IMG/VR virus record: IMGVR_UViG_3300023176_002545
From: a virus
Reading direction: 5' to 3' (one strand)
DNA length: 64,000 nt
The translations under genes were made by a program, and so were the position numbers. The notes under the pieces were generated by a model, which was not told the DNA's origin, ran no database searches, and saw only the letters and a list, made by a program, of their open reading frames with translations. Shown piece after piece: positions 1,534 through 63,886 of the stretch (the first letter of the stretch is position 1; each line of letters begins with the position of its first letter).

Positions 1534-1974
1534 TTAGCCATCACCTTCAGTATCGTCAGCACCTGTTAGTACGTCATCTGCTGTACCAAGAGTTGCGTCA
1601 ACACCAGCACCAATGCCTGTACCAGCTTCTTCAACTGCTACTGTTGCACCTGTACCTGTGAAGTCCCAATCAATTCTAGAACCATTGTCCATGGTTAGAA
1701 CACGACCGGAAATTTTAGTTACTTGACGAGCTGTTCCGCCATCGTCTACAGTGATTGACATTTCACCTGCTGCTAGTGCTGCTGATGCTTTGTCTACAAG
1801 GTAACAAGTACCTGTATCTGTACCGCCTGCATTTGAAACTTTGAAACGCTTTGAACCAGTTTGTTTTACAATGTAACCTGGAGTTGATCCGTTACCTGAA
1901 TTAAACTGAACTTTGATTTCGCTACCGCCTGCTGTAGGTGCACCGAAATATCTTTTGTTAATTGGTCTTCCCAT
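1534..1974 (-). CDS. Putative head decoration or capsid-associated protein
   Basis: 146-aa Gly/Thr-rich ORF (MGRPINKRYFG...) with a taggag RBS and its own TAAATA promoter, downstream of the capsid gene; function inferred from position. Confidence 0.55.
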   Translation of the reverse strand: MGRPINKRYFGAPTAGGSEIKVQFNSGNGSTPGYIVKQTGSKRFKVSNAGGTDTGTCYLVDKASAALAAGEMSITVDDGGTARQVTKISGRVLTMDNGSRIDWDFTGTGATVAVEEAGTGIGAGVDATLGTADDVLTGADDTEGDG

Positions 1975-1981
1975 TTGTTTT

Positions 1982-2066
1982 CTCCTATAAAGTAGTCCTA
2001 TCCGGGTTCTATCCGGTACGCTGTGGGTAACAGCATAAGTCCGCCTTGCGGCACACTATCTGACAC
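1982..2066 (-). ncRNA. Candidate structured 5' leader RNA of the 146-aa gene
   Basis: GC-rich island in an AT-rich genome, between promoter and RBS: GCC-GCAA-GGC (GNRA loop), GCUGU-UACCC-ACAGC and CCGG-N7-CCGG hairpins, plus a CCGGAUAG direct repeat. Confidence 0.45.
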
Positions 2067-2069
2067 AAG

Positions 2070-2076
2070 TATTTAT
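2070..2076 (-). promoter_or_regulatory. T4-like late promoter core (ATAAATA)
   Basis: Minus strand reads ggATAAATAc, just after the terminator at 2107-2129 and about 95 nt before the 146-aa start. Confidence 0.6.
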
Positions 2077-2106
2077 CCATAACGCCAGAAAGGTGAAAGC
2101 ATAGAT

Positions 2107-2129
2107 AAAAAAACCCGCCGAAGCGGGTT
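2107..2129 (-). terminator. Rho-independent terminator (UUCG tetraloop)
   Basis: Minus strand reads AACCCGC-UUCG-GCGGGUU followed by a U-run; ends the pqqA transcript. Confidence 0.85.
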
Positions 2130-2174
2130 ATTCGCAATCTTGCGTTTCTAGCAAACGTTGCATGTAATCTTCAT

Positions 2175-2246
2175 CTAGCGGTTCATTACATACATTGTTA
2201 CTTCGAAACCAAAACGCATTTCTTCTGCTATAGGTTTTGTCCACAT
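2175..2246 (-). CDS. pqqA: PQQ biosynthesis precursor peptide PqqA (23 aa, MWTKPIAEEMRFGFEVTMYVMNR)
   Basis: Hand-translated; absent from the ORF track. Strong RBS GAAAGGAG 6 nt upstream. Matches the PqqA pattern MW.KP....R.G.EVT.Y..NR, including the Glu-x3-Tyr pair that is cross-linked, and has the canonical length. Confidence 0.92.
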   Translation of the reverse strand: MWTKPIAEEMRFGFEVTMYVMNR

Positions 2247-2307
2247 ATGCTTCTCCTTTCAAATAATATTTAAACATAGATGAAAGGAAAAAGCATACGT
2301 AAAATCA

Positions 2308-2394
2308 TTAAAGACTGCTCAATATAAAATTGATTCTATTTCTTCGGTGCTGAATGATTAGTTGTTTGTAGCACCATAGTGTGAAGTTGTCCAT
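2308..2394 (-). CDS. Riboswitch-controlled 28-aa basic peptide (MDNFTLWCYKQLIIQHRRNRINFILSSL), function unknown
   Basis: Hand-translated. RBS UAGGAG 7 nt upstream of ATG, directly 3' of the glutamine riboswitch aptamer. Confidence 0.7.
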   Translation of the reverse strand: MDNFTLWCYKQLIIQHRRNRINFILSSL

Positions 2395-2423
2395 TACACT
2401 TCTCCTACTTAAAGGGTTAAAGT

Positions 2424-2466
2424 GCGTTCCTTCGCATTATGCTACTTCCGTCCCGTAGGATGAACG
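2424..2466 (-). ncRNA. Glutamine riboswitch (glnA RNA motif, glutamine-I class), minimal form
   Basis: Minus strand reads CGUUCA-UCC-UACG-GGA-CGGAAGUA-GCA-UAA-UGC-GAAGGAACGC: P1 CGUUC/GAACG, short P2 and P3 hairpins, and the CGGAAGUA...GAAG core of the glnA consensus. Confidence 0.85.
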
Positions 2467-2472
2467 TAAAAA

Positions 2473-2479
2473 TATTTAG
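2473..2479 (-). promoter_or_regulatory. Late promoter core (CTAAATA) for the riboswitch-peptide-pqqA transcript
   Basis: TAAATA lies immediately after the capsid terminator and 6-7 nt before the aptamer 5' end, consistent with late-promoter start-site spacing. Confidence 0.65.
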
Positions 2480-2481
2480 TC

Positions 2482-2510
2482 AAAAAAATAGGCCCCTAAG
2501 GGCCTATTTT
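2482..2510 (-). terminator. Rho-independent terminator after the major capsid gene (possibly bidirectional)
   Basis: AAAAUAGGCCC-UUAG-GGGCCUAUUUU plus UUU: 11-bp stem with A/U tails, about 22 nt after the capsid stop codon. Confidence 0.9.
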
Positions 2511-2532: not shown

Positions 2533-3702
2533 TTAGCTGAAGCTTACGTTAGAGATCGCAACACGCTCAACGTAGTCCGCTGCATTACCAAGAGATGATG
2601 CAGTGTTGTTTAGCTCAACATAACCATAACGTGTCATGAAGCTAACTACTGGCTCGAATGTGTCTGGATCTAGAACAACGCCGCTGCTCATCAATGGAAT
2701 GTATGGGCAGTAGAATGCTGCTGCATCTGCTTCAGATGAACCTTTGTAACCAACTAGTACGTCAGTGTCGTCTGCTGCATATGTATCAACGTAGATTCTC
2801 ATTGCGTTGTTTAGTGTACCAACGAACTTAGTGTTTGTTGGTGCTTCGAAAGTACCTTCTGTAGTACGAGCAAATGCACTTGTAGTTGCAGACTGTAGGA
2901 TTGTCAATGCTTGTGGTGAAACCACTGCAAAGTTACCTGCACCTCTACGTGTACGCTGTGCAATTTTGTTTGCTTGTCTGTTGATTAGAACTGCAAGTGC
3001 TGCATGCTCATCACCAACAAATGTTGCTGTACCAGATACTGCTGCCTGGTTGAATGTTTCACTTGCTGTACCAGCTAGTGAACGTAGTGAACCTAGGATT
3101 TCTTGGTCAATCTCAGTTGTAATTTCCTGAGCAAGAGCTGCCATGATTTCAGCTTCAACGTCAATGCCCTGTTGAGCTTGTGCGTCTTGAGCTGCTTCAA
3201 AAGTCCAGCGAGCTGATAGCTTTCTGGATTTTGCTTCAACAGTTTGCTTGAGGATTTGGATTGACATCTTACGTCCTGGAGCACCTTCAAGTGTTGCAGT
3301 TGCATCTGCTTTACCATTTGGATCAGTGCCTGCACCTGAATATGCAGTTGCAATCTTAAATGGTGATAGAGCTTCGTCACCTGCTGTTACGTTATCGTTT
3401 GATTCAGCATAACGTACTCTTAATGTGTGGATCTGACCCACTGGACCTGTCATTGGTTGTACACCAACTAACTCGTTTGCGATAGTTGTTGGCATTACAC
3501 GTCTGATGACTGGTAAAATGACTCTGTTTAGAGTCGCGACGTTACCGGCAGAAGTGGCACCAGCTGTTGCACTTTCTGACAAATACTTGCGAGTATTTTC
3601 AAGTGTTACAGCCATAACTGACTTACGATTGCCTTCAAGGCCTTCGAGCAGTGCTGTTTTAGTGTCCTGCCAGCGGCTTTCTAGTAGTTCTGACATTTTC
3701 AT
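2533..3702 (-). CDS. gp23: Major capsid protein (T4 gp23-like)
   Basis: gp23 family motifs GVQPMTGPVGQIHTLR, RKLSARWTFEAAQD, LAQEITTEIDQEI, FYCPYIP and MTRYG; strong terminator follows. Confidence 0.95.
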   Translation of the reverse strand: MKMSELLESRWQDTKTALLEGLEGNRKSVMAVTLENTRKYLSESATAGATSAGNVATLNRVILPVIRRVMPTTIANELVGVQPMTGPVGQIHTLRVRYAESNDNVTAGDEALSPFKIATAYSGAGTDPNGKADATATLEGAPGRKMSIQILKQTVEAKSRKLSARWTFEAAQDAQAQQGIDVEAEIMAALAQEITTEIDQEILGSLRSLAGTASETFNQAAVSGTATFVGDEHAALAVLINRQANKIAQRTRRGAGNFAVVSPQALTILQSATTSAFARTTEGTFEAPTNTKFVGTLNNAMRIYVDTYAADDTDVLVGYKGSSEADAAAFYCPYIPLMSSGVVLDPDTFEPVVSFMTRYGYVELNNTASSLGNAADYVERVAISNVSFS

Positions 3703-4821: not shown

Positions 4822-5448
4822 TTATCGGAGCCCGTTGATGATATTCATCAACTGATTCTTTAGGTATTTTTGTGCCTTAGCATCGTCCCTAAGTTCTTGT
4901 GCCATTCCAAATGCCTTATACCCACCCCTGGTATTCATAAGATGCTCATAAATTGGTGTTGGGTAGGCACCTGGAGCACTTGGCTGAGCGACCACATCAA
5001 CTGTTATAATTTCAAAGTCGCTTACTTCGCCGGATCCATCTTCACTGACGTTTCCGGAACCTCTTGAACTTACACCAAGTTTTACACCGGCCTCTAGCAT
5101 TGTTTTTACTAGAGACCCCATTGGTGTAGGAATAAGTTTAAGTTTTCCATAACCGTTTGGGCCATCCATCCACATTTTTGTGATCATATGGCTTACACGA
5201 TCTAAGTTAACATTAAGACCTTGCGGATGATCTACTTCGCCAAGAACCGAATATCCTCCTTCAATCTGCTCGTTGAGCGTCTTGACAGCCCTGCTAATTT
5301 CTTGCACTGGATACACACGCTGATTGGCATTTCTTACACCGCCTTGGATGAAAATGCCTGACATGTGAAGGTCCTTGCCTTCATTTGCAGACTCAACGAC
5401 CATGTTTGCCTGGTCAAATGTCAAGTTCTCTTGGAGTACATTCATCAT
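4822..5448 (-). CDS. gp21: Prohead maturation protease (T4 gp21-like)
   Basis: GIFIQGGVRNANQRVYP, LGEVDHP, VSHMIT, LGVSSRGSG and DVVAQPSAPGA motifs of gp21. Confidence 0.92.
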   Translation of the reverse strand: MMNVLQENLTFDQANMVVESANEGKDLHMSGIFIQGGVRNANQRVYPVQEISRAVKTLNEQIEGGYSVLGEVDHPQGLNVNLDRVSHMITKMWMDGPNGYGKLKLIPTPMGSLVKTMLEAGVKLGVSSRGSGNVSEDGSGEVSDFEIITVDVVAQPSAPGAYPTPIYEHLMNTRGGYKAFGMAQELRDDAKAQKYLKNQLMNIINGLR

Positions 5449-7186: not shown

Positions 7187-8932
7187 TTATAGTCCGCCGC
7201 CGCCCGGTGCTCCGCCCGGTGCTGGTGCTGGTGCACCACCTGGCTCTGCTCCACCTGCTTCTGCTCCACCTTCAGGTGCTGCTGGTGCTTCTGGTGCTGC
7301 GGTTTCTAAACCGCCTATGTCTGAACTAATACCGCCCATGCTAATTCCTGCACTGCGTAGTTCTCCGCTTGCATCAGTTGGAAGTTTTAGATTTTCATCA
7401 TTTTCTTCACGCCATAGTCTTTCGTTTTCTGCAATCTCTTCGTCACTTAGTCCTAAGAAACGTTGTAGTGCAAAACGTTGACTCATATAAGGAATCTGTT
7501 GTACTTGTGTAAATGTACCTATACGACTGTTGTCAAGTTCTGCTTGTCTGTAACTTGCAAAGTTTTTAGGTGGTTGGAATGATAGTTCAAAAACACTAGT
7601 GTCTACGTTTACACCTTTTTGTAGTATGTACAGTTTAAATTCTTGATCAAATCTATCTGTTACCAAACGCTGTAGGCGTTCACAATAGGCATTAAAACGT
7701 AGTTCTTGTATGTAAGCAGTACCAACACGACCGTCATTAAACTGACTTTGGCCGTCATCTGCTGCTGTTGGTAAGTAGCTGGAAGGTATACGGAGACCGC
7801 GTACTAGTTTGTTTGTGAAATATTTGAGGTCGTCAATTTCACCTAGGTTAGTACCGCCTGGCAGCGTTTCAACTTTTGATCCTCTACCTTCAGCTGTTTG
7901 TGGAAAGAAGTAGTCTTCGTTTATTGAAAGAGGATTGTATGCACTGTCAATTACATTCTGTCCACCACCAGTCTGTGAAGGTATCCTTCTCTGATGGATT
8001 TCATTCTTTACTCTTTCCACAAAACTCATTGCCAAGTGACTTGGCATGTTGCCAACGTCTACGTAGAACACACGTCTTTCAGGTGCTCTTTGTACACGAT
8101 ATATAATAATAGCATCTTCTAAAAGTTCTTTTTGTTTATAAACTTTGAAGATGCTTTCAAGTAGACTGTTTCCAAAAGGATAATTGTTGTCTAGTCCTTC
8201 ACTCAAACTCAAATGTACAACGTGTTCTGCATCTACTGCAACTTCTTGTTGCGTAGTTTCAAAACGTGAGCTGCTAGTTGCACTGTTTGGTGGAGTGCCT
8301 ACCATACCTCTTGCACCACCTTGGAAATAACCCTGATGACCTGAGCTGGTAACGCCACCTGGATCTGTATTCAATGTGGTTGCAACAAGATCTTGAAAAT
8401 TAATGTTTAGGTCTTTGATTACATATTGCTCAGGCTTTTTGCCTTCGCTTTCATTAACAATAATTTTTGTAACTTTTGCAGGATCAACATAAAACCATTT
8501 TTTAGTTTCTGGATCTCTAATAAAAAACGCATCACCATATTTAAATGTGTTGCGTAGTATACGGAAAATGCGAGTGTCAAATTTTTGTAGTTTTGACCAC
8601 TGTTGTAGATACTGTTTAAGTATTCTAACTTCAGAATTAGTTGCTTTTTCTTTAAATTCTAATTTAAAAGGTGTATTGTTAGTTGTATTTCTTTGTGTGC
8701 AGAACTCTGCAAGGATATCTAGAGCAGCATTAACTTCACTGTCGCTGTCCATAGTTTCGTATTGGCCATAACGTTCTACACGATTAGGTGAACCTGTGTA
8801 AACATCTGGCAAATAACTTGAATAATTAGTTCGTGCAGGACCAGGTCTACTAGCATTGCCATTGCCTAGTGGACTGTATGTTCCTTCACTATTTCCTGTA
8901 GGTACAGGTGTAAAATATTTTTTCCAGCTCAT
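7187..8932 (-). CDS. gp20: Portal protein (T4 gp20-like)
   Basis: gp20 motifs EDAIIIYRVQRAPERRVFYVDVGNMP, EDYFFP, GRGSKVETLPGG, DDLKYF and GLRIPSSYL; Pro/Gly/Ala-rich tail. Confidence 0.95.
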   Translation of the reverse strand: MSWKKYFTPVPTGNSEGTYSPLGNGNASRPGPARTNYSSYLPDVYTGSPNRVERYGQYETMDSDSEVNAALDILAEFCTQRNTTNNTPFKLEFKEKATNSEVRILKQYLQQWSKLQKFDTRIFRILRNTFKYGDAFFIRDPETKKWFYVDPAKVTKIIVNESEGKKPEQYVIKDLNINFQDLVATTLNTDPGGVTSSGHQGYFQGGARGMVGTPPNSATSSSRFETTQQEVAVDAEHVVHLSLSEGLDNNYPFGNSLLESIFKVYKQKELLEDAIIIYRVQRAPERRVFYVDVGNMPSHLAMSFVERVKNEIHQRRIPSQTGGGQNVIDSAYNPLSINEDYFFPQTAEGRGSKVETLPGGTNLGEIDDLKYFTNKLVRGLRIPSSYLPTAADDGQSQFNDGRVGTAYIQELRFNAYCERLQRLVTDRFDQEFKLYILQKGVNVDTSVFELSFQPPKNFASYRQAELDNSRIGTFTQVQQIPYMSQRFALQRFLGLSDEEIAENERLWREENDENLKLPTDASGELRSAGISMGGISSDIGGLETAAPEAPAAPEGGAEAGGAEPGGAPAPAPGGAPGGGGL

Positions 8933-17356: not shown

Positions 17357-18184
17357 TTAATCGGATGAATTTTCGTTCAATCTTGCCATTTGTGATTCCC
17401 ATTCTGCATTACCTGTTCGTGTAAACGATGGATTCATTCCGTTTTGTTCAAGTATATCATCTCTGATGTTTTGATTGCGTTTCTCAATATTGATAACACG
17501 TACAAATGAGTTAGTGACAGCCGCTGTGTAGTATGCAAACGGGTTATTAGATTTGCTCTCATCAAATTGCAAACCAATCTGTGCCAATTGGAGGATTGCT
17601 TGTCCACGCATTTCGTCATTATAAGTATATCCTCTTACATTACCACGGGTAGCATAACGATCACACAGTTTCATCCACATAAGGGCTAGTTTATTTGTTG
17701 CTTTACCGTGTTTATGGTCAAAGTTTCCGTTTTCCATACCACCTTGCCAATGGCTTTTCCCTACACAAACAAGCTCATCGGTGTCGTTGAACTTGTAATG
17801 TTGGAACGGTGGAAAGTTTAATTTAACTTTTCGATCTGCATCGTTCTTTGGGTTCTTTTTGCGTCCGGGTTCGTCTGGTATATGATCAAAGGTCATAATA
17901 CGGAAAATTAGTTCTTCTTTGGTTATTTTTCTATAATCTATCTCGCAGTCTGCTTGTTTTACACGTTCTCCGGCTGCTTTACGTGCTTCATAGTCTGCTT
18001 GTGATAATCTTTTAGCCTTGTTTCTTTTGGCCTCTGCAATAGTTCTAATGTTAATTTTGTCTAAACTTGGTAAAATGATGTCATATTGATGATATTCTGG
18101 ATCAACATACGAACAAAATGTATTTTTTGATCTATGTATCTCTGCTAGAATGTCTTTGTTGTTAAGGTAGTTTACTCTTTTCAT
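17357..18184 (-). CDS. gp55: Late-transcription sigma factor (T4 gp55-like)
   Basis: YLNNKD start and YTYNDEMRGQA...FDESKSNNPFAYYT..VTNSF.R.I..EK motif; T4 synteny 55-47-46. Confidence 0.85.
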   Translation of the reverse strand: MKRVNYLNNKDILAEIHRSKNTFCSYVDPEYHQYDIILPSLDKINIRTIAEAKRNKAKRLSQADYEARKAAGERVKQADCEIDYRKITKEELIFRIMTFDHIPDEPGRKKNPKNDADRKVKLNFPPFQHYKFNDTDELVCVGKSHWQGGMENGNFDHKHGKATNKLALMWMKLCDRYATRGNVRGYTYNDEMRGQAILQLAQIGLQFDESKSNNPFAYYTAAVTNSFVRVINIEKRNQNIRDDILEQNGMNPSFTRTGNAEWESQMARLNENSSD

Positions 18185-58206: not shown

Positions 58207-59104
58207 TATTGATATTATCTATTTGTCATATGACGAACCTAATGCAGATGAAAACTATGCCGATCTGCTTAAAAAAGCACCTTGGGCTAAACGTGTACAC
58301 GGCGTAGAAGGATCAGATGCCGCACACAAAGCCTGTGCAGAACTTGCAGAAACAGAACGATTTATTACTGTTGACGGTGACAATAAAATTTATGCTGACT
58401 TCTTAGAACAAGAAATAGATTTTAAACAACATCCTTATATGAAAAATGCTGTACTAAGTTGGTGCGGATATAATGTAATCAACGGACTTATGTACAGCAA
58501 TGGCGGTTTAAAATGTTGGCCAAAAGATGTTGTACTAAACATGAAAACACATGAAGCAAGTGAATCAAACGATATTGCTGCTCAAGTAGAATTTTGCTGG
58601 AACTTGGATTATATACAAATGAATAGTTGTTATTCAAAGGTATATAATAACGCTACACCTGCACAAGCATGGAGAGCAGGCTTCCGTGAAGGTGTTAAAA
58701 TGTGTTTGGACAGAGGTCGAAAGTTTAACAGTATAACATTCAAAGATGAAGTCTACTGGCAGAATCTGCATAGACTAATGATATGGCAAATGGTAGGTGC
58801 AGATGTTGAACATGGTATGTGGGCAATATATGGAGCACGATTAGGTTGTGTAATGACTAATCTTGAAAATTGGGATTATGTACAAGTTAGAGATTTTAAG
58901 TACCTAAATAGTCTATGGGAAGAAATAACTCAAGATGTAGATGATACTAATATATTGTGGAAAGTAAGAAAGTTAGGATTTAGACTACAGCAAGAATTAG
59001 GATTGCCTGTTGACTTGCCGTTTACTAGAATTCAAAGCGAAATGTTCAAAGACAGTTATACAAATACAGATCGCACAGGTCAAGGATTTATTGATGTTGA
59101 ATAA
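58193..59104 (+). CDS. Glycosyltransferase-like protein (start moved from 58166)
   Basis: DIIYLSYDEPNADENY...RVHGVEG...FITVDGD and QAWRAGFREGVKM; gagagg RBS before ATG 58193. Confidence 0.65.
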   Translation: MKIRDIDIIYLSYDEPNADENYADLLKKAPWAKRVHGVEGSDAAHKACAELAETERFITVDGDNKIYADFLEQEIDFKQHPYMKNAVLSWCGYNVINGLMYSNGGLKCWPKDVVLNMKTHEASESNDIAAQVEFCWNLDYIQMNSCYSKVYNNATPAQAWRAGFREGVKMCLDRGRKFNSITFKDEVYWQNLHRLMIWQMVGADVEHGMWAIYGARLGCVMTNLENWDYVQVRDFKYLNSLWEEITQDVDDTNILWKVRKLGFRLQQELGLPVDLPFTRIQSEMFKDSYTNTDRTGQGFIDVE

Positions 59105-60479
59105 ACTAGTAAAAAAATTTGCTAGACAGCTAAAGATTGTAAAAGATCCTATTGACCGTATGACTGAAGTAAAAGAAATTACGGATAAAGTTTCTCCTAC
59201 ATTTTGTTTGGCAAAATGGCATCACACTACAATATATTTACAAACAGGTGAAACGCATAGTTGTTATCATCCTGCACCGCATATTATTCCCTTACACGAA
59301 CTTGAAAACAATCCTAGTGCCCTACACAATACAGTAGAAAAGAAATTACAGCGACGAGAAATGATGGCAGGACTAAAACCTAAAGGGTGTCAGTACTGCT
59401 GGAATATAGAGTGCATGGGCAAAGACTATGTAAGTGACAGGCATGAAAGAAATGCTGGAATCTATACAAAAGAACGATTAGCAGAAATTGTAGACAATGA
59501 TTGGGACTTTAATATTAATCCAGAGTATATTGAAGTTTCATTTGGTAATGAGTGTAATTTAAAATGTGGATACTGTCATCCTAAAGCAAGTAGTAGTTAC
59601 TTTAAAGAAATAGAAGAATATGGCCCTTATGATATGGTTAAAAACCATTCATTTGATACCCGCCGTATGCGTATATACAAAAAGGAAGAAGAAAACCCTT
59701 ATGTACAAGCATGGTGGGACTGGTGGCCCCAGGTAAGTAAAACGCTGAACATATTACGCATTACAGGAGGTGAGCCACTTTTGCAACAGAGTACTTGGCG
59801 TTTGCTTGAGGACCTATCCGAGAATCCTCGTCCTAATCTTGAAATCAATATTAACAGTAATCTTGCTGTTAAAAATATACTTGTAAAACGTCTTGCAGAA
59901 AGGGTTAACAAGTTAATTGAAGAAAAGAAAATTAAACGGTTTAAATTGTTTACTAGTATGGACACTTGGGGAACACCTGCAGAATATATTAGAACTAACT
60001 TAGACTTGTCTGTTTGGGAAAAGAACTTTGATACATGGATGACACAAACAGATCAACCTATTACATTTATGGTTACATTTAATGTGTTGTGTGTAACTAC
60101 ATTTAACAAACTGCTTGAAAAGTTTTTAGAGTGGAGACAGAAATATCAAACTGGTACAAGACGCATACGTTTTGATACACCTTATCTAAAAGAACCTTTG
60201 CAGTACGATATGAATATACTTCCTAAAAGTTTTATGAGTTATATGGAAAGTCATTTAGAATTTATCAAAAGCAATCTAGATGACTATGACGTAAACAAAT
60301 TTACAAAACTTGAATATGAAAAGTTTCGTCGTGTTGTAGATTACATGCGTACTACAAACTATGACGAAGAAACCTTAGATATAGGACGAAAAGATTTTGT
60401 TGCTTGGTTTAAAGAACATGATAGACGTCGAGGAACAAATTTTGCTAAAACGTTTCCTGAATTACATGGTATTTTTTGA
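59094..60479 (+). CDS. Radical SAM protein with an N-terminal Cys cluster (start moved from 59010)
   Basis: CNLKCGYC and ITGGEP motifs; N-terminal CLAKW...HSCYHP...GCQYCW; aagga RBS before ATG 59094. Confidence 0.85.
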   Translation: MLNKLVKKFARQLKIVKDPIDRMTEVKEITDKVSPTFCLAKWHHTTIYLQTGETHSCYHPAPHIIPLHELENNPSALHNTVEKKLQRREMMAGLKPKGCQYCWNIECMGKDYVSDRHERNAGIYTKERLAEIVDNDWDFNINPEYIEVSFGNECNLKCGYCHPKASSSYFKEIEEYGPYDMVKNHSFDTRRMRIYKKEEENPYVQAWWDWWPQVSKTLNILRITGGEPLLQQSTWRLLEDLSENPRPNLEININSNLAVKNILVKRLAERVNKLIEEKKIKRFKLFTSMDTWGTPAEYIRTNLDLSVWEKNFDTWMTQTDQPITFMVTFNVLCVTTFNKLLEKFLEWRQKYQTGTRRIRFDTPYLKEPLQYDMNILPKSFMSYMESHLEFIKSNLDDYDVNKFTKLEYEKFRRVVDYMRTTNYDEETLDIGRKDFVAWFKEHDRRRGTNFAKTFPELHGIF

Positions 60480-61741: not shown

Positions 61742-62872
61742 ATGAGAATAGCATTTATTGGTTTAGGAAAACTAGGACTACCCTGTGCAGAAGAAATAGC
61801 CAAGAGCGGTCACATAGTTTCAGGATATGATATTGTTGAATGCAATACAAATAACGTCAAACAGTTGCCAACAATACAAGAAACTGTAGAAGGTCAAGAG
61901 ATTGTATTTGTTGCTGTACCAACGCCACACGACCCTGCATATGACGGTAGAGCTCCTACAGCACACCTAGAGCCAAAAGATTTCAGTTACGATATTGTTA
62001 AAGACGTTTTAACAGAATGTAACAAGCACATGAACAAAGACCAACTGCTTGTTTTAATCAGTACAGTGTTACCTGGAACAACTCGTAGAGAATTTATTAA
62101 TTTAGTACCTAATACACGATTTGTGTATAATCCGTATTTGATTGCTATGGGCACAGTTGCATGGGACATGGTAAATCCTGAAATGGTAATGATTGGAACA
62201 GATGATGGCAGTGAAACAGGTGACGCAAAACAGTTGGTAGACTTCTACAAAACTGTAATGCAAAATGATCCACGTTACGTTATTGGTACTTGGGACGAAT
62301 GTGAAGCAATCAAAGTTTTTTATAATACATTTATTAGTACAAAGATTGGACTAGTAAACATGATACAAGATGTTGCACAAAAGCAAGGCAACATCAATGT
62401 TGATGTAGTTACCAAAGCACTAGCAGAAAGTTCGCAACGTATCATGGGTCCTAGTTATATGAAGGCAGGCATGGGCGACGGTGGTGCTTGTCATCCTAGA
62501 GATAATATTGCACTACGTTACATGGCAAAAAATCTACATTTAGGATACGACATTTTTGATAGTATTATGAACGCTAGAGAAATACAAGCACGTAACATGG
62601 CTATTGAAATACTCAAATATGGAAACAAAGTACAGTTTAGTAGTGACAGTTATAAACCAGGTGTAGAATATATAGACGGCAGTTATAGTTTACTAGTACA
62701 GCATTATGTTAAAGAATTAGGTGGCTGGATAGTAGATAAAGATCCTAGCGTATTTGTAAGAGTACATGATACAGATGCAGTACCTGAAAATGTTACTGTT
62801 TTTGACCCTTGGCGTAATTATGAGGGCCAAAATCCTGTAGTACACTATGGAAATACTAGACACAGCAAGTGA
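61742..62872 (+). CDS. ugd: UDP-glucose/GDP-mannose 6-dehydrogenase family protein
   Basis: GLGKLG Rossmann motif, FVAVPTP, STVLPGT, YNP, EAIKVFYN and catalytic GDGGACHPRD. Confidence 0.88.
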   Translation: MRIAFIGLGKLGLPCAEEIAKSGHIVSGYDIVECNTNNVKQLPTIQETVEGQEIVFVAVPTPHDPAYDGRAPTAHLEPKDFSYDIVKDVLTECNKHMNKDQLLVLISTVLPGTTRREFINLVPNTRFVYNPYLIAMGTVAWDMVNPEMVMIGTDDGSETGDAKQLVDFYKTVMQNDPRYVIGTWDECEAIKVFYNTFISTKIGLVNMIQDVAQKQGNINVDVVTKALAESSQRIMGPSYMKAGMGDGGACHPRDNIALRYMAKNLHLGYDIFDSIMNAREIQARNMAIEILKYGNKVQFSSDSYKPGVEYIDGSYSLLVQHYVKELGGWIVDKDPSVFVRVHDTDAVPENVTVFDPWRNYEGQNPVVHYGNTRHSK

Positions 62873-62887
62873 AATATGTTATAATTA

Positions 62888-63886
62888 ATGATGATTGATG
62901 AGAATACTTTTACTGAAATACCATTTGAAAAGATTGTTAAGTTTGGGCAACGTACCTTATTGGAACAGAACCTATTTACTGTCAGTTGGATTCTTGGTCG
63001 CTTTTGCAATTATAATTGTAGCTATTGCTGGCCCTACGCAAGATCAGACAAACCGGACCATTATGATTTATCCGTTTACAAACAGACAATTGATAATATA
63101 AAATATCAAGCACAGTTAAATGGCTTTAAGAATTTTCATTTTAGTTTCAGTGGAGGCGAACCCACTGCTTATAAATACTTTGGGGAACTTATAGAGTACT
63201 ACTGTAGTGATACAGCACCCGAGTATCAAAGTATACATATGACCACAAATTTATCACCCGGAAGCAAATGGTGGAATAGGTGGTTAGATGCAACAAGTAC
63301 TTTGCAACGTAGAAGTATAACAGCAAGTTTTCACGATGAATTTGCTAACGAGCAAGAGTTTGGAGACAAATGCTTGCAACTAATGAAAGGAGGAACCTTT
63401 GTTACGATTAATCAAGTTATGGTTCCTGAAAGGTTTGAAGAGCTTTACGAACGCCTACAACGATTTGCCGCCAGAGGCATTAGCGTCACTCTCAAACCTC
63501 AGTCCAACAATACTGCCACCGACGTGGTACATGGATATACAAAAGAACAAATTGCAATCATGCAAGCCGGATTCCCACAAAAGTGGCAAGGCGAAAAAAT
63601 CTCGCAAATTGCACTCTACGACGATAAAGGAATAGAGTACGATTTAGATCAAGCAGAACGTTTTAATGCGTTTGGCTTTAATAAGTTTGAAGGCTGGACT
63701 TGTAATGCAGGGTACCAGGGGATAGTTATTAGAGAAAATGAAGTAAAACGTTCCTATTCCTGTCATGAAGAACCTTTAGGAACAATAACCGATGGGTTCA
63801 CTATACATGACGCTCCTAGAAAATGCATTACACGTTCTTGTGTAAGTTCAGCAGATTCTAAACTTCCAAAAGTAAGAGAGATATAA
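62888..63886 (+). CDS. Radical SAM protein with a C-terminal twitch-like Cys cluster
   Basis: CNYNCSYC, FSGGEP and TTNLS; C-terminal CNAG...SC...C...C. Confidence 0.85.
   Translation: MMIDENTFTEIPFEKIVKFGQRTLLEQNLFTVSWILGRFCNYNCSYCWPYARSDKPDHYDLSVYKQTIDNIKYQAQLNGFKNFHFSFSGGEPTAYKYFGELIEYYCSDTAPEYQSIHMTTNLSPGSKWWNRWLDATSTLQRRSITASFHDEFANEQEFGDKCLQLMKGGTFVTINQVMVPERFEELYERLQRFAARGISVTLKPQSNNTATDVVHGYTKEQIAIMQAGFPQKWQGEKISQIALYDDKGIEYDLDQAERFNAFGFNKFEGWTCNAGYQGIVIRENEVKRSYSCHEEPLGTITDGFTIHDAPRKCITRSCVSSADSKLPKVREI

What the first reader, a model, noticed from the sequence alone, without database searches (positions are those of the whole stretch)
2175..2246. Phage-encoded PqqA (PQQ precursor peptide)
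Seen: a 23-aa ORF, MWTKPIAEEMRFGFEVTMYVMNR, with a strong RBS. Established: PqqA is the stoichiometrically consumed ribosomal precursor whose Glu and Tyr (ExxxY) are cross-linked by PqqE/PqqD to make PQQ, the cofactor of methanol, alcohol and glucose dehydrogenases. No pqqB-E genes are in the window. Inference: an auxiliary metabolic gene feeding the host pathway. From memory, the EMRFGFEVTMYVMN variant resembles Methylophilaceae PqqA, which hints at a methylotroph host such as OM43 or Methylopumilus. PQQ-related genes may already be reported in aquatic viromes, so novelty needs checking.
Basis: partly seen in the sequence, partly recalled or inferred. Interest (0 to 1): 0.9.

Follow-up and report, generated by a model that had tools for sequence, protein, structure and literature searches.

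The report
Phage copy of PQQ precursor gene
A giant T4-like phage of methanol-eating bacteria carries its own working-looking copy of pqqA, the tiny peptide that the host uses up to make the cofactor PQQ; this is a real but already reported kind of phage helper gene that gene callers nearly always miss.

Summary
The 23-codon ORF is real, but it lies on the minus strand (2246..2175). It passes both curated PqqA models at about twice their cut-offs. It has an AGGAG ribosome site, a TAAATA late-promoter-like box and its own terminator, and sits just after the major head gene of a T4-like phage. Relatives are estimated at about 350 kb.

Host inference: its core EMRFGFEVTMYVMN is the Methylophilaceae type. 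The commonest viral PqqA peptides are identical to the commonest host ones. Genus (OM43 or Methylopumilus) is unresolved.

No pqqB-E or xoxF was found in the window. Host genomes carry one pqqE and 3-7 scattered pqqA copies, so extra precursor supply is the best reading. No expression or PQQ data exist.

Novelty is low. Coutinho et al. 2020 (PMC7678222) reported viral PqqA, and this scan has noted phage pqqA on other DNA many times (201 notes, at least 109 genomes). tblastn found the gene in all ten Methylophilales/Methylophilaceae phage records it returned, annotated in none. It is also in more than 120 IMG/VR contigs of at least 8 phage groups.

New here: the gene holds a fixed place after the head gene in 17 related contigs. 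A phage-only micro-ORF (MQRLLETQDCE) directly follows pqqA and is unexplained.

The parts
2175..2246 (-). pqqA coding sequence, 23 codons plus TAG stop; Glu15 and Tyr19 form the ExxxY pair
   Evidence: Translation; PF08042; TIGR02107
2253..2257 (-). Shine-Dalgarno AGGAG, 6 nt before the ATG
   Evidence: Read from the sequence; AAGGAGA is the commonest 7-mer upstream of viral pqqA
2267..2272 (-). TAAATA box 26 nt before the ATG; candidate T4-type late promoter of pqqA
   Evidence: There are 17 such boxes within 120 nt upstream of 42 ORFs against about 2 expected. The box is kept at -26 or -43 in 13 of the 18 clade sequences (window plus 17 contigs). Inferred, not shown.
2128..2163 (-). Micro-ORF MQRLLETQDCE*, 11 nt after the pqqA stop, in the +2 frame; its TAA is the foot of the terminator stem
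   Evidence: Kept through synonymous changes. Found only after phage pqqA. Not found in 301 Methylophilaceae genomes.
2105..2129 (-). Intrinsic terminator-like hairpin and T run that close the pqqA unit
2421..2468 (-). Glutamine riboswitch aptamer of the neighbouring unit; not part of pqqA control
   Evidence: RF01739 at 51.3 bits against a gathering score of 35. Its order relative to pqqA is swapped in 8 relatives.
2308..2394 (-). 28-codon ORF behind the riboswitch, with its own AGGAG
   Evidence: conserved in L099
2485..2510 (.). Two-way terminator-like hairpin that ends the major head gene
   Evidence: and the sequence
2533..3702 (-). Major head protein (Gp23 family), directly upstream of the cassette
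   Evidence: phrog_138 at E 1e-103; PF07068
1972..2055 (-). freshwater-2 RNA motif that opens the next unit (146-codon ORF at 1974..1534)
   Evidence: RF02980 at 76.6 bits against a gathering score of 49.9
17357..18184 (-). Late sigma factor of the gp55 type, the likely reader of the TAAATA boxes
   Evidence: phrog_12791 at E 7e-80

Best explanation
This is a functional phage copy of the host gene pqqA, carried as a small self-contained unit: late-type promoter box, ribosome site, 23 codons, terminator. It sits just after the major head gene of a large T4-like phage of Methylophilaceae. During infection the phage would make extra PqqA peptide. The host's own PqqD/PqqE, PqqB, PqqC and peptidases would turn it into PQQ, one peptide per PQQ molecule. 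That would keep the periplasmic methanol dehydrogenase (XoxF/MxaF) supplied with cofactor, and so keep up the energy and carbon flow that virion production needs.

Shown: family membership, intact Glu/Tyr pair, phage setting, purifying selection, recurrence in many phage lineages, and presence of pqqE plus multiple pqqA copies in the host family.

Inferred: late transcription, processing by host enzymes, and any gain in PQQ or phage yield.
For: - **Family membership.** Both HMM scores are about twice the curated cut-offs. E15-x3-Y19, W2 and P5 are present.
- **Phage setting.** Portal, prohead protease, Gp23 head protein, baseplate wedge, tail fibre and a gp55-like sigma factor surround the gene.
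- **Fixed position.** Seventeen related IMG/VR contigs (head protein 81-84% identical) keep pqqA immediately after the head gene, once inverted.
- **Spread.** tblastn finds the ORF in all ten Methylophilales/Methylophilaceae phage records it returned and in one spring podovirus, annotated in none. They fall into about 30 gene-content groups with different hallmark genes.
- **Selection.** Outside the codons fixed by the search pattern, viral pN/pS is 0.27-0.33 at pS about 0.55, the same as in hosts (0.29). W2, P5 and R11 are invariant through up to 5 codons.
- **Host link.** The motif EMRFGFEVTMY hits almost only Methylophilaceae genomes. The two commonest host peptides are also the two commonest viral ones.
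- **Host capacity.** Five host genomes have 3-7 pqqA copies and one pqqE each. The literature gives 3-12 pqqA copies against single pqqB-G (PMC4109929). Raised pqqA transcription accompanies PQQ overproduction (PMC9851590).
- **Companion gene.** One 72-kb pqqA-bearing viral contig also carries a full XoxF/MxaF-type dehydrogenase, as in the Lake Baikal phages.
Against: - There is no expression, peptide or PQQ measurement for any phage pqqA.
- PQQ is a recycled cofactor, so it is not obvious that new synthesis limits a single infection.
- The promoter box suggests late expression, which is late for an energy-boosting gene.
- The window peptide differs from the commonest host peptide at three positions (I6, E8, R23), and no host copy in my sample matches it exactly.
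- Only 64 kb of a genome of perhaps 350 kb is visible.
- One strain variant has Ala in place of Met18.
Confidence: 0.72

Rival explanations
1. The cassette makes two products. Besides PqqA, a phage-only micro-peptide (window MQRLLETQDCE) is translated just after or overlapping pqqA. It either acts on the PQQ pathway or, by occupying the foot of the terminator, sets how much transcription reads through into the next unit. On this view plain precursor supply is only part of the function.
For: - The micro-ORF follows pqqA in 19 IMG/VR contigs and in the window.
- Window against L038 shows 7 nucleotide changes, all synonymous. Arg is kept through CGT/AGA outside the searched pattern.
- In a sample picked by pqqA codons alone, further variants appear: RLLETLDCE, RLVETQDCE, RLLDTTDCV, VTDCY.
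- The motif T.?DC.* occurs after 6 of 118 viral copies, 0 of 120 host copies and 3 of 3000 random windows. The exact pattern is in none of 301 host-family genomes.
- The +2 frame is open through the whole of pqqA in all 11 distinct RLLETQDCE cassettes, against a base rate of 3 of 101.
Against: - The start codon is ATG, GTG, ATA or GTA, and there is no separate ribosome site.
- The frame is closed in L079, L278 and L013.
- Most phage pqqA units lack the micro-ORF, including L120 in the same clade.
- A strain variant cuts it to MDCE*.
- Most cassettes share ancestry, so the counts are not independent.
- No known function or homologue exists.
Confidence: 0.12
2. The peptide is a decoy or inhibitor: it occupies PqqD/PqqE without yielding PQQ, which shuts down the host cofactor supply or blocks competitors.
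For: The window peptide has unusual leader residues (I6, E8), and a strain variant has EVTAY.
Against: The reactive Glu and Tyr and the whole core are intact. Most viral peptides are letter-for-letter host peptides. Some pqqA phages also carry methanol dehydrogenase, which needs PQQ.
Confidence: 0.04
3. It is a passenger: a scrap of host DNA picked up by recombination and kept without function, or used only as a homology patch for recombination with the host chromosome.
For: The neighbourhood is a shuffling spot: unit order is swapped, the unit is inverted in L120, and an HNH-like gene is inserted in one strain.
Against: Amino acids are kept while synonymous sites are near saturation. Only 1 of 110 viral copies is identical in nucleotides to a sampled host copy. 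The gene is present in unrelated lytic phage types, each copy with its own ribosome site and terminator.
Confidence: 0.05

Closest known systems
Virus-encoded PqqA of Lake Baikal methylotroph phages (Coutinho et al. 2020, Microbiome 8:163, PMC7678222)
   Same: A stand-alone pqqA in a T4-like phage assigned to Methylophilaceae and read as an auxiliary gene for methanol oxidation. One IMG/VR contig here also pairs it with a methanol dehydrogenase gene.
   Different: This phage belongs to another lineage: its head gene is about 70% identical in nucleotides to those of Rak2/PA5oct-type jumbo phages, and relatives are estimated at about 350 kb. No methanol dehydrogenase is in the visible 64 kb. The fixed position after the head gene, the late-type box and the trailing micro-ORF are not described in that paper's text as I searched it.
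Scattered 'orphan' pqqA copies of Methylophilaceae chromosomes (Beck et al. 2014, PMC4109929)
   Same: Same length and the same EMRFGFEVTMYVMN core. These are single short genes with their own ribosome site, unlinked to pqqBCDE.
   Different: The phage copy has phage-type upstream signals (TAAATA box) instead of the host upstream motif (AATCATGA). It also has three residue differences and a trailing micro-ORF not seen in hosts.
Unannotated pqqA in cultured methylophages (Venkman, P19250A, MEP301, MEP401/402, Melnitz)
   Same: The same 23-24 residue peptide, 82-87% identical, as a lone unit.
   Different: Those phages are 35-142 kb, of other morphotypes, and carry the gene in other genome neighbourhoods. 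The papers I could search do not mention it.
Classic phage auxiliary genes for consumed or fast-turnover parts of host energy metabolism (cyanophage psbA); from general knowledge
   Different: Here the product is a sacrificial 23-residue peptide substrate, not an enzyme or a structural subunit.

Membership tests
PqqA (PF08042 / TIGR02107) | Match to the curated family models above their cut-offs | tested here: met
   42.2 bits against 21.1; 38.5 bits against 20, equivalog model
PqqA (PF08042 / TIGR02107) | Short peptide (about 20-40 residues) with Glu and Tyr spaced E-x-x-x-Y, the two residues that become PQQ | tested here: met
   23 residues with E15-V-T-M-Y19. E and Y are invariant in 101 distinct viral copies, but those two columns were fixed by the search pattern.
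PqqA (PF08042 / TIGR02107) | N-terminal leader of the type bound by PqqD (W-x-K/T-P ... R) | tested here: met
   W2, K4, P5 and R11 are present. W2, P5 and R11 are invariant in viral copies at columns not fixed by the pattern. Binding itself was not tested.
PqqA (PF08042 / TIGR02107) | Encoded next to pqqBCDE | tested here: not met
   No pqqC/D/E or xoxF similarity in the window. The two radical SAM ORFs are not PqqE. This feature is not strict for the family: the Methylopumilus genome has three pqqA copies, all more than 100 kb from pqqE.
PqqA (PF08042 / TIGR02107) | Converted to PQQ by PqqD/E, B, C | not testable with these tools
   Needs an in vitro cross-linking assay or complementation
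Phage auxiliary metabolic gene | Lies inside a true phage genome, flanked by phage genes on both sides | tested here: met
   the same arrangement occurs in 17 related viral contigs
Phage auxiliary metabolic gene | Kept under purifying selection in phages | tested here: met
   pN/pS is 0.27-0.33 outside the pattern-fixed codons, equal to the host value
Phage auxiliary metabolic gene | Expressed during infection and changes host metabolism | not testable with these tools

The most novel reading that the evidence does not exclude
The phage pqqA unit is a two-peptide cassette. A phage-only micro-peptide (Y-x-x-R-L-L-E-T-x-D-C-x, window MQRLLETQDCE) is read in the +2 frame, starting at or before the pqqA stop, and is translationally tied to PqqA. 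It either modulates the host PQQ pathway or gates the terminator that separates pqqA from the next late unit. That would make pqqA part of a dual-coding regulatory device and not a plain copied host gene.
Probability: 0.12. Interest if true: 0.7.

Novelty: new member of a known kind. Interest (0 to 1): 0.4.

Why it matters
Methylophilaceae (OM43, LD28/Methylopumilus, Methylotenera) are major consumers of methanol in seas and lakes. The gene is present in every cultured phage of this group that the search returned, and in many unrelated uncultured ones. That points to PqqA supply as a real bottleneck of methanol oxidation in infected cells, so phages may tune a step of the aquatic C1 cycle.

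In practice, a 23-codon gene is invisible to standard gene callers and therefore to auxiliary-gene surveys. Its sequence is also a cheap and fairly specific marker for predicting a methylotroph host of an uncultured phage.

Tried and rejected
- **Whole genome.** None is held for the window.
- **Relative search by protein.** The search for related loci refuses a 23-residue query, so I used back-translated DNA patterns instead.
- **Source record.** Exact 38-mer searches for the window in IMG/VR and JGI metagenomes found nothing. A look-up by the head protein did find three ENA assemblies.
- **tRNAs.** None in the window, so no host clue from that side.
- **Phylogenetic tree.** I did not build a tree of 23-residue peptides because it would not resolve anything. 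I compared exact peptide variants instead.
- **Riboswitch control of pqqA.** Rejected as a general rule: the two units stand in the opposite order, separated by the pqqA terminator, in 8 relatives, and each has its own TAAATA box.
- **RNA hairpin instead of a coding micro-ORF.** I checked pairing by eye only, and the possible pairings are not kept between lineages. No covariation test was run.
- **One long overlapping +2 ORF as the general form of the micro-ORF.** Rejected, because the frame is closed in L079, L278 and L013.
- **Radical SAM ORFs as PqqE.** The ORFs at 59010-60479 and 62888-63886 were checked. The first is a twitch-domain radical SAM protein (316 bits) and neither hits the PqqE model.
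- **Complex prediction.** Not run: PqqA is below the 30-residue chain length, and the pairing with PqqD is a textbook one.

Full report
**1. Observation**

The ORF exists, but on the minus strand. Window 2246..2175 reads MWTKPIAEEMRFGFEVTMYVMNR followed by TAG; the plus strand gives nonsense. AGGAG lies 6 nt before the ATG. A G+C-rich hairpin with a UUCG loop and a T run follows at 2129..2112.

The peptide covers the whole Pfam PqqA model at 42.2 bits against a cut-off of 21.1. It also matches the NCBIfam equivalog TIGR02107 at 38.5 bits against a cut-off of 20. The two residues that become PQQ, Glu15 and Tyr19, are in place.

**2. Setting**

The gene lies in the head module of a phage:
- portal at 7187-8932;
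- prohead protease at 4822-5448;
- major head protein at 2533-3702 (phrog_138, E 1e-103, Gp23 family);
- baseplate wedge, tail fibre and collar proteins, a 4,639-residue ORF, SegE-type endonuclease, Rad50/Mre11-like pair;
- a gp55-type late sigma factor at 17357-18184.

The head gene is about 66-70% identical in nucleotides to those of 285-385 kb phages such as PA5oct, fHe-Yen9-04 and XbC2. CheckV estimates for related IMG/VR contigs imply a genome near 350 kb.

The window itself is not in IMG/VR or the JGI contigs. Its head protein is encoded letter for letter on 73-130 kb contigs of three ENA assemblies. Two of them hold the identical pqqA stretch, which the gene caller left empty.

G+C content is 33-41%. 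No tRNA genes are present.

**3. The intergenic stretch after the head gene holds three small units, all on the minus strand**

- **Unit 1.** After the head-gene terminator (2510..2485) come a TAAATA box (2478..2473), a glutamine riboswitch aptamer (2468..2421, RF01739, 51.3 bits against 35) and a 28-codon ORF with its own AGGAG (2394..2308).
- **Unit 2.** A TAAATA box (2272..2267), then pqqA, then an 11-codon micro-ORF (2163..2128) and the terminator.
- **Unit 3.** A TAAATA box (2075..2070), then a freshwater-2 RNA motif (2055..1972, RF02980, 76.6 bits against 49.9) and a 146-codon ORF.

TAAATA is the core of the T4 late promoter (TATAAATA; general knowledge). In this window 17 copies lie within 120 nt upstream of 42 ORFs, where about 2 are expected from the overall density.

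So pqqA most likely has its own late promoter. That is an inference from sequence only.

**4. Relatives of this phage**

Seventeen IMG/VR contigs have head proteins 81-84% identical and portals about 75% identical to the window's. All carry pqqA directly after the head gene. In L120 the unit is inverted but keeps its box and ribosome site.

The riboswitch unit stands before pqqA in the window, L099 and L251, but after the pqqA terminator in eight others. The two units are therefore separate modules. pqqA is not generally under riboswitch control, contrary to what the arrangement in this window alone might suggest.

One strain variant (L267) has PqqA ending EVTAYVMNK, a micro-ORF reduced to MDCE, and an HNH-like gene in place of unit 3. 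This shows that the spot is a recombination-prone cargo site.

**5. Spread of phage pqqA**

tblastn against 50,697 GenBank phage records finds the ORF at 82-87% identity in ten Methylophilales/Methylophilaceae phage records: Venkman, P19250A, MEP301, MEP401, MEP402 and four Melnitz isolates. It also finds it in a spring-water podovirus. It is annotated in none of them.

By shared gene content these loci fall into about 30 groups. Representatives carry different hallmarks:
- RecE-type exonuclease, in the Venkman/P19250A group of 59 loci;
- two different head/portal sets;
- T4-type DNA polymerase and clamp loader;
- UvsX-like recombinase.

One 72-kb contig with pqqA also carries a complete XoxF/MxaF-type PQQ dehydrogenase (608 bits against TIGR03075's cut-off of 480).

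**6. Selection**

Of 110 viral copies, 101 differ in nucleotides. Over all codons pN/pS is 0.165, against 0.135 for hosts, but the search pattern fixes seven codons. Outside those codons, viral pN/pS is 0.27-0.33 at pS about 0.55, against 0.29 in hosts. W2, P5 and R11 never change although they use up to five codons.

Only 1 of 110 viral copies is nucleotide-identical to a sampled host copy. The gene is therefore kept for its peptide and is not a fresh scrap of host DNA.

**7. Host**

The rows shown are Methylotenera, Methylophilus, Methylovorus, Methylobacillus, Ca. Methylopumilus, unnamed Methylophilaceae, or Burkholderiales/Betaproteobacteria bins, with one Acidovorax-labelled bin.

The two commonest host peptides (MWTTPAATEMRFGFEVTMYVMNK and the K4 form) are also the two commonest viral ones. 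The ending VMNK occurs in the named Methylotenera, Methylophilus and Methylopumilus records I looked at. VCNR occurs in the Methylobacillus, Methylovorus and Pseudomethylobacillus records.

The window's peptide (I6, E8, R23) has no exact host match. Its nearest relative is a viral copy, L038, at 66 of 72 nucleotides.

The family-level host call is well supported, and the low G+C and the freshwater-2 motif fit a freshwater member. The genus is open. The scan was truncated and the pattern was derived from the phage peptide, so specificity is shown only for the rows returned.

**8. Can the host use it?**

Five host genomes have 3-7 pqqA matches each and one PqqE above cut-off. In the 1.3-Mb Methylopumilus genome all three pqqA copies lie more than 100 kb from pqqE.

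Beck et al. 2014 report 3-12 pqqA copies against single pqqB-G in Methylophilaceae (PMC4109929). A PQQ-overproducing methylotroph shows raised pqqA and pqqE transcription (PMC9851590).

The window holds no pqqC/D/E or xoxF similarity, and its two radical SAM ORFs are not PqqE.

**9. Mechanism**

The best reading is plain precursor supply. The phage adds copies of the only component of the pathway that is consumed one-for-one, and host enzymes do the rest. I put this at about 0.7.

Weak points:
- no expression or PQQ data exist;
- PQQ is a recycled cofactor;
- the predicted timing is late.

A decoy role is unlikely because most viral peptides equal host peptides. A passenger role is unlikely because of the selection signal.

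**10. A loose end that may be the most interesting part**

Directly after pqqA, in the +2 frame, lies MQRLLETQDCE*, whose stop codon is the foot of the terminator stem.

*Evidence for a coding micro-ORF*
- Window against L038 (a different phage lineage with a different terminator) shows 7 nucleotide changes, all synonymous. Arg is CGT or AGA.
- A back-translated pattern finds it in 19 IMG/VR contigs, always after pqqA, and in none of 301 Methylophilaceae genomes.
- In 46 contigs chosen only by pqqA codons, further forms appear: RLLETLDCE, RLVETQDCE, RLLDTTDCV, RLLETQDCV and the short MVIVTDCY.
- The ending T.?DC.* occurs after 6 of 118 viral copies, 0 of 120 host copies and 3 of 3000 random windows.
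- The +2 frame stays open through the whole of pqqA in all 11 distinct RLLETQDCE cassettes, although only 3 of 101 viral and 4 of 106 host pqqA sequences have that property.

*Evidence against*
- The frame is closed in L079, L278 and L013.
- The apparent start codon varies (ATG, GTG, ATA, GTA).
- Most cassettes share descent.

I regard a translated micro-peptide as about even odds and its function as unknown.

**11. Novelty**

Viral PqqA was reported by Coutinho et al. 2020 for a T4-like Lake Baikal methylophage, together with methanol dehydrogenase. The MEP301, MEP401/402 and Melnitz papers do not mention it. Full-text searches found no other report.

This scan has already noted phage pqqA on other DNA many times: 201 notes in at least 109 genomes. 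Those notes include its presence in all cultured methylophages and in a marine jumbo phage. Notes on the riboswitch-peptide-pqqA cassette of this same window also exist.

This case is therefore a new member of a known kind. What is added here:
- the fixed post-head-gene position in a jumbo T4-like clade;
- the late-type promoter box;
- the independence from the riboswitch unit;
- the micro-ORF.

Noticed in passing
window 2128-2163 (-); also L038, L099, L245-L261, L272, L275, L278, L280: An 11-codon micro-ORF, MQRLLETQDCE*, lies directly after pqqA in the +2 frame, and its stop abuts the terminator. It is kept through synonymous changes, is phage-only (0 of 301 host genomes) and its start codon is uncertain.
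   Followed up: partly
window 2421-2468 (-) and 2308-2394 (-): A glutamine riboswitch aptamer (RF01739, 51.3 bits) sits behind a TAAATA box and before a conserved 28-codon basic ORF (MDNFTLWCYKQLIIQHRRNRINFILSSL). The same unit occurs in L099 and, after pqqA, in 8 other relatives.
   Followed up: partly
window 1972-2055 (-): A freshwater-2 RNA motif (RF02980, 76.6 bits) lies right after a TAAATA box and before a 146-codon ORF with no family match. This places the motif in a phage late unit.
   Followed up: no
window-wide; boxes listed: TAAATA is about 8-fold enriched within 120 nt upstream of ORFs. Together with the gp55-like sigma factor at 17357-18184 (-), this suggests the late promoter core of this phage.
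   Followed up: partly
L267:4170-4740 (ENA ERZ27313218): A strain variant of the same phage has PqqA ending EVTAYVMNK, the micro-ORF cut in frame to MDCE*, and an HNH-like endonuclease gene in place of the freshwater-2 unit.
   Followed up: partly
L038:790-884 and L124 (upstream of pqqA): A second pqqA-bearing lineage (UvsX-like neighbour, estimated about 360 kb) has a conserved leader of about 70 nt between a TAAATA box and the pqqA ribosome site. It has no Rfam match and may be a structured RNA.
   Followed up: no
L263/L264 (contig of L047, IMGVR_UViG_3300025120_009955): A 72-kb viral contig carries both pqqA and a full-length XoxF/MxaF-type PQQ-dependent dehydrogenase (608 bits against TIGR03075).
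   Followed up: partly
window 59010-60479 (+), 61742-62872 (+), 62888-63886 (+): A cluster holds a twitch-domain radical SAM protein (NF033640, 316 bits), a nucleotide-sugar dehydrogenase-like protein and a second radical SAM protein. It may be a sugar or nucleotide modification module and is not PqqE.
   Followed up: partly
L007, L016, L021, L027, L031 (IMG/VR): Some viral PqqA variants are not of the Methylophilaceae type (for example [23 protein letters not shown] and [24 protein letters not shown]), which suggests phages of other PQQ-making hosts.
   Followed up: no
host loci L125-L244, 95-125 nt upstream of pqqA: Host pqqA copies share an upstream motif (A)AATCATGA. Many phage copies instead have TAATGATT(TTAC) 63-88 nt upstream, which resembles the reverse complement of the host motif. 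The meaning is unknown.
   Followed up: no
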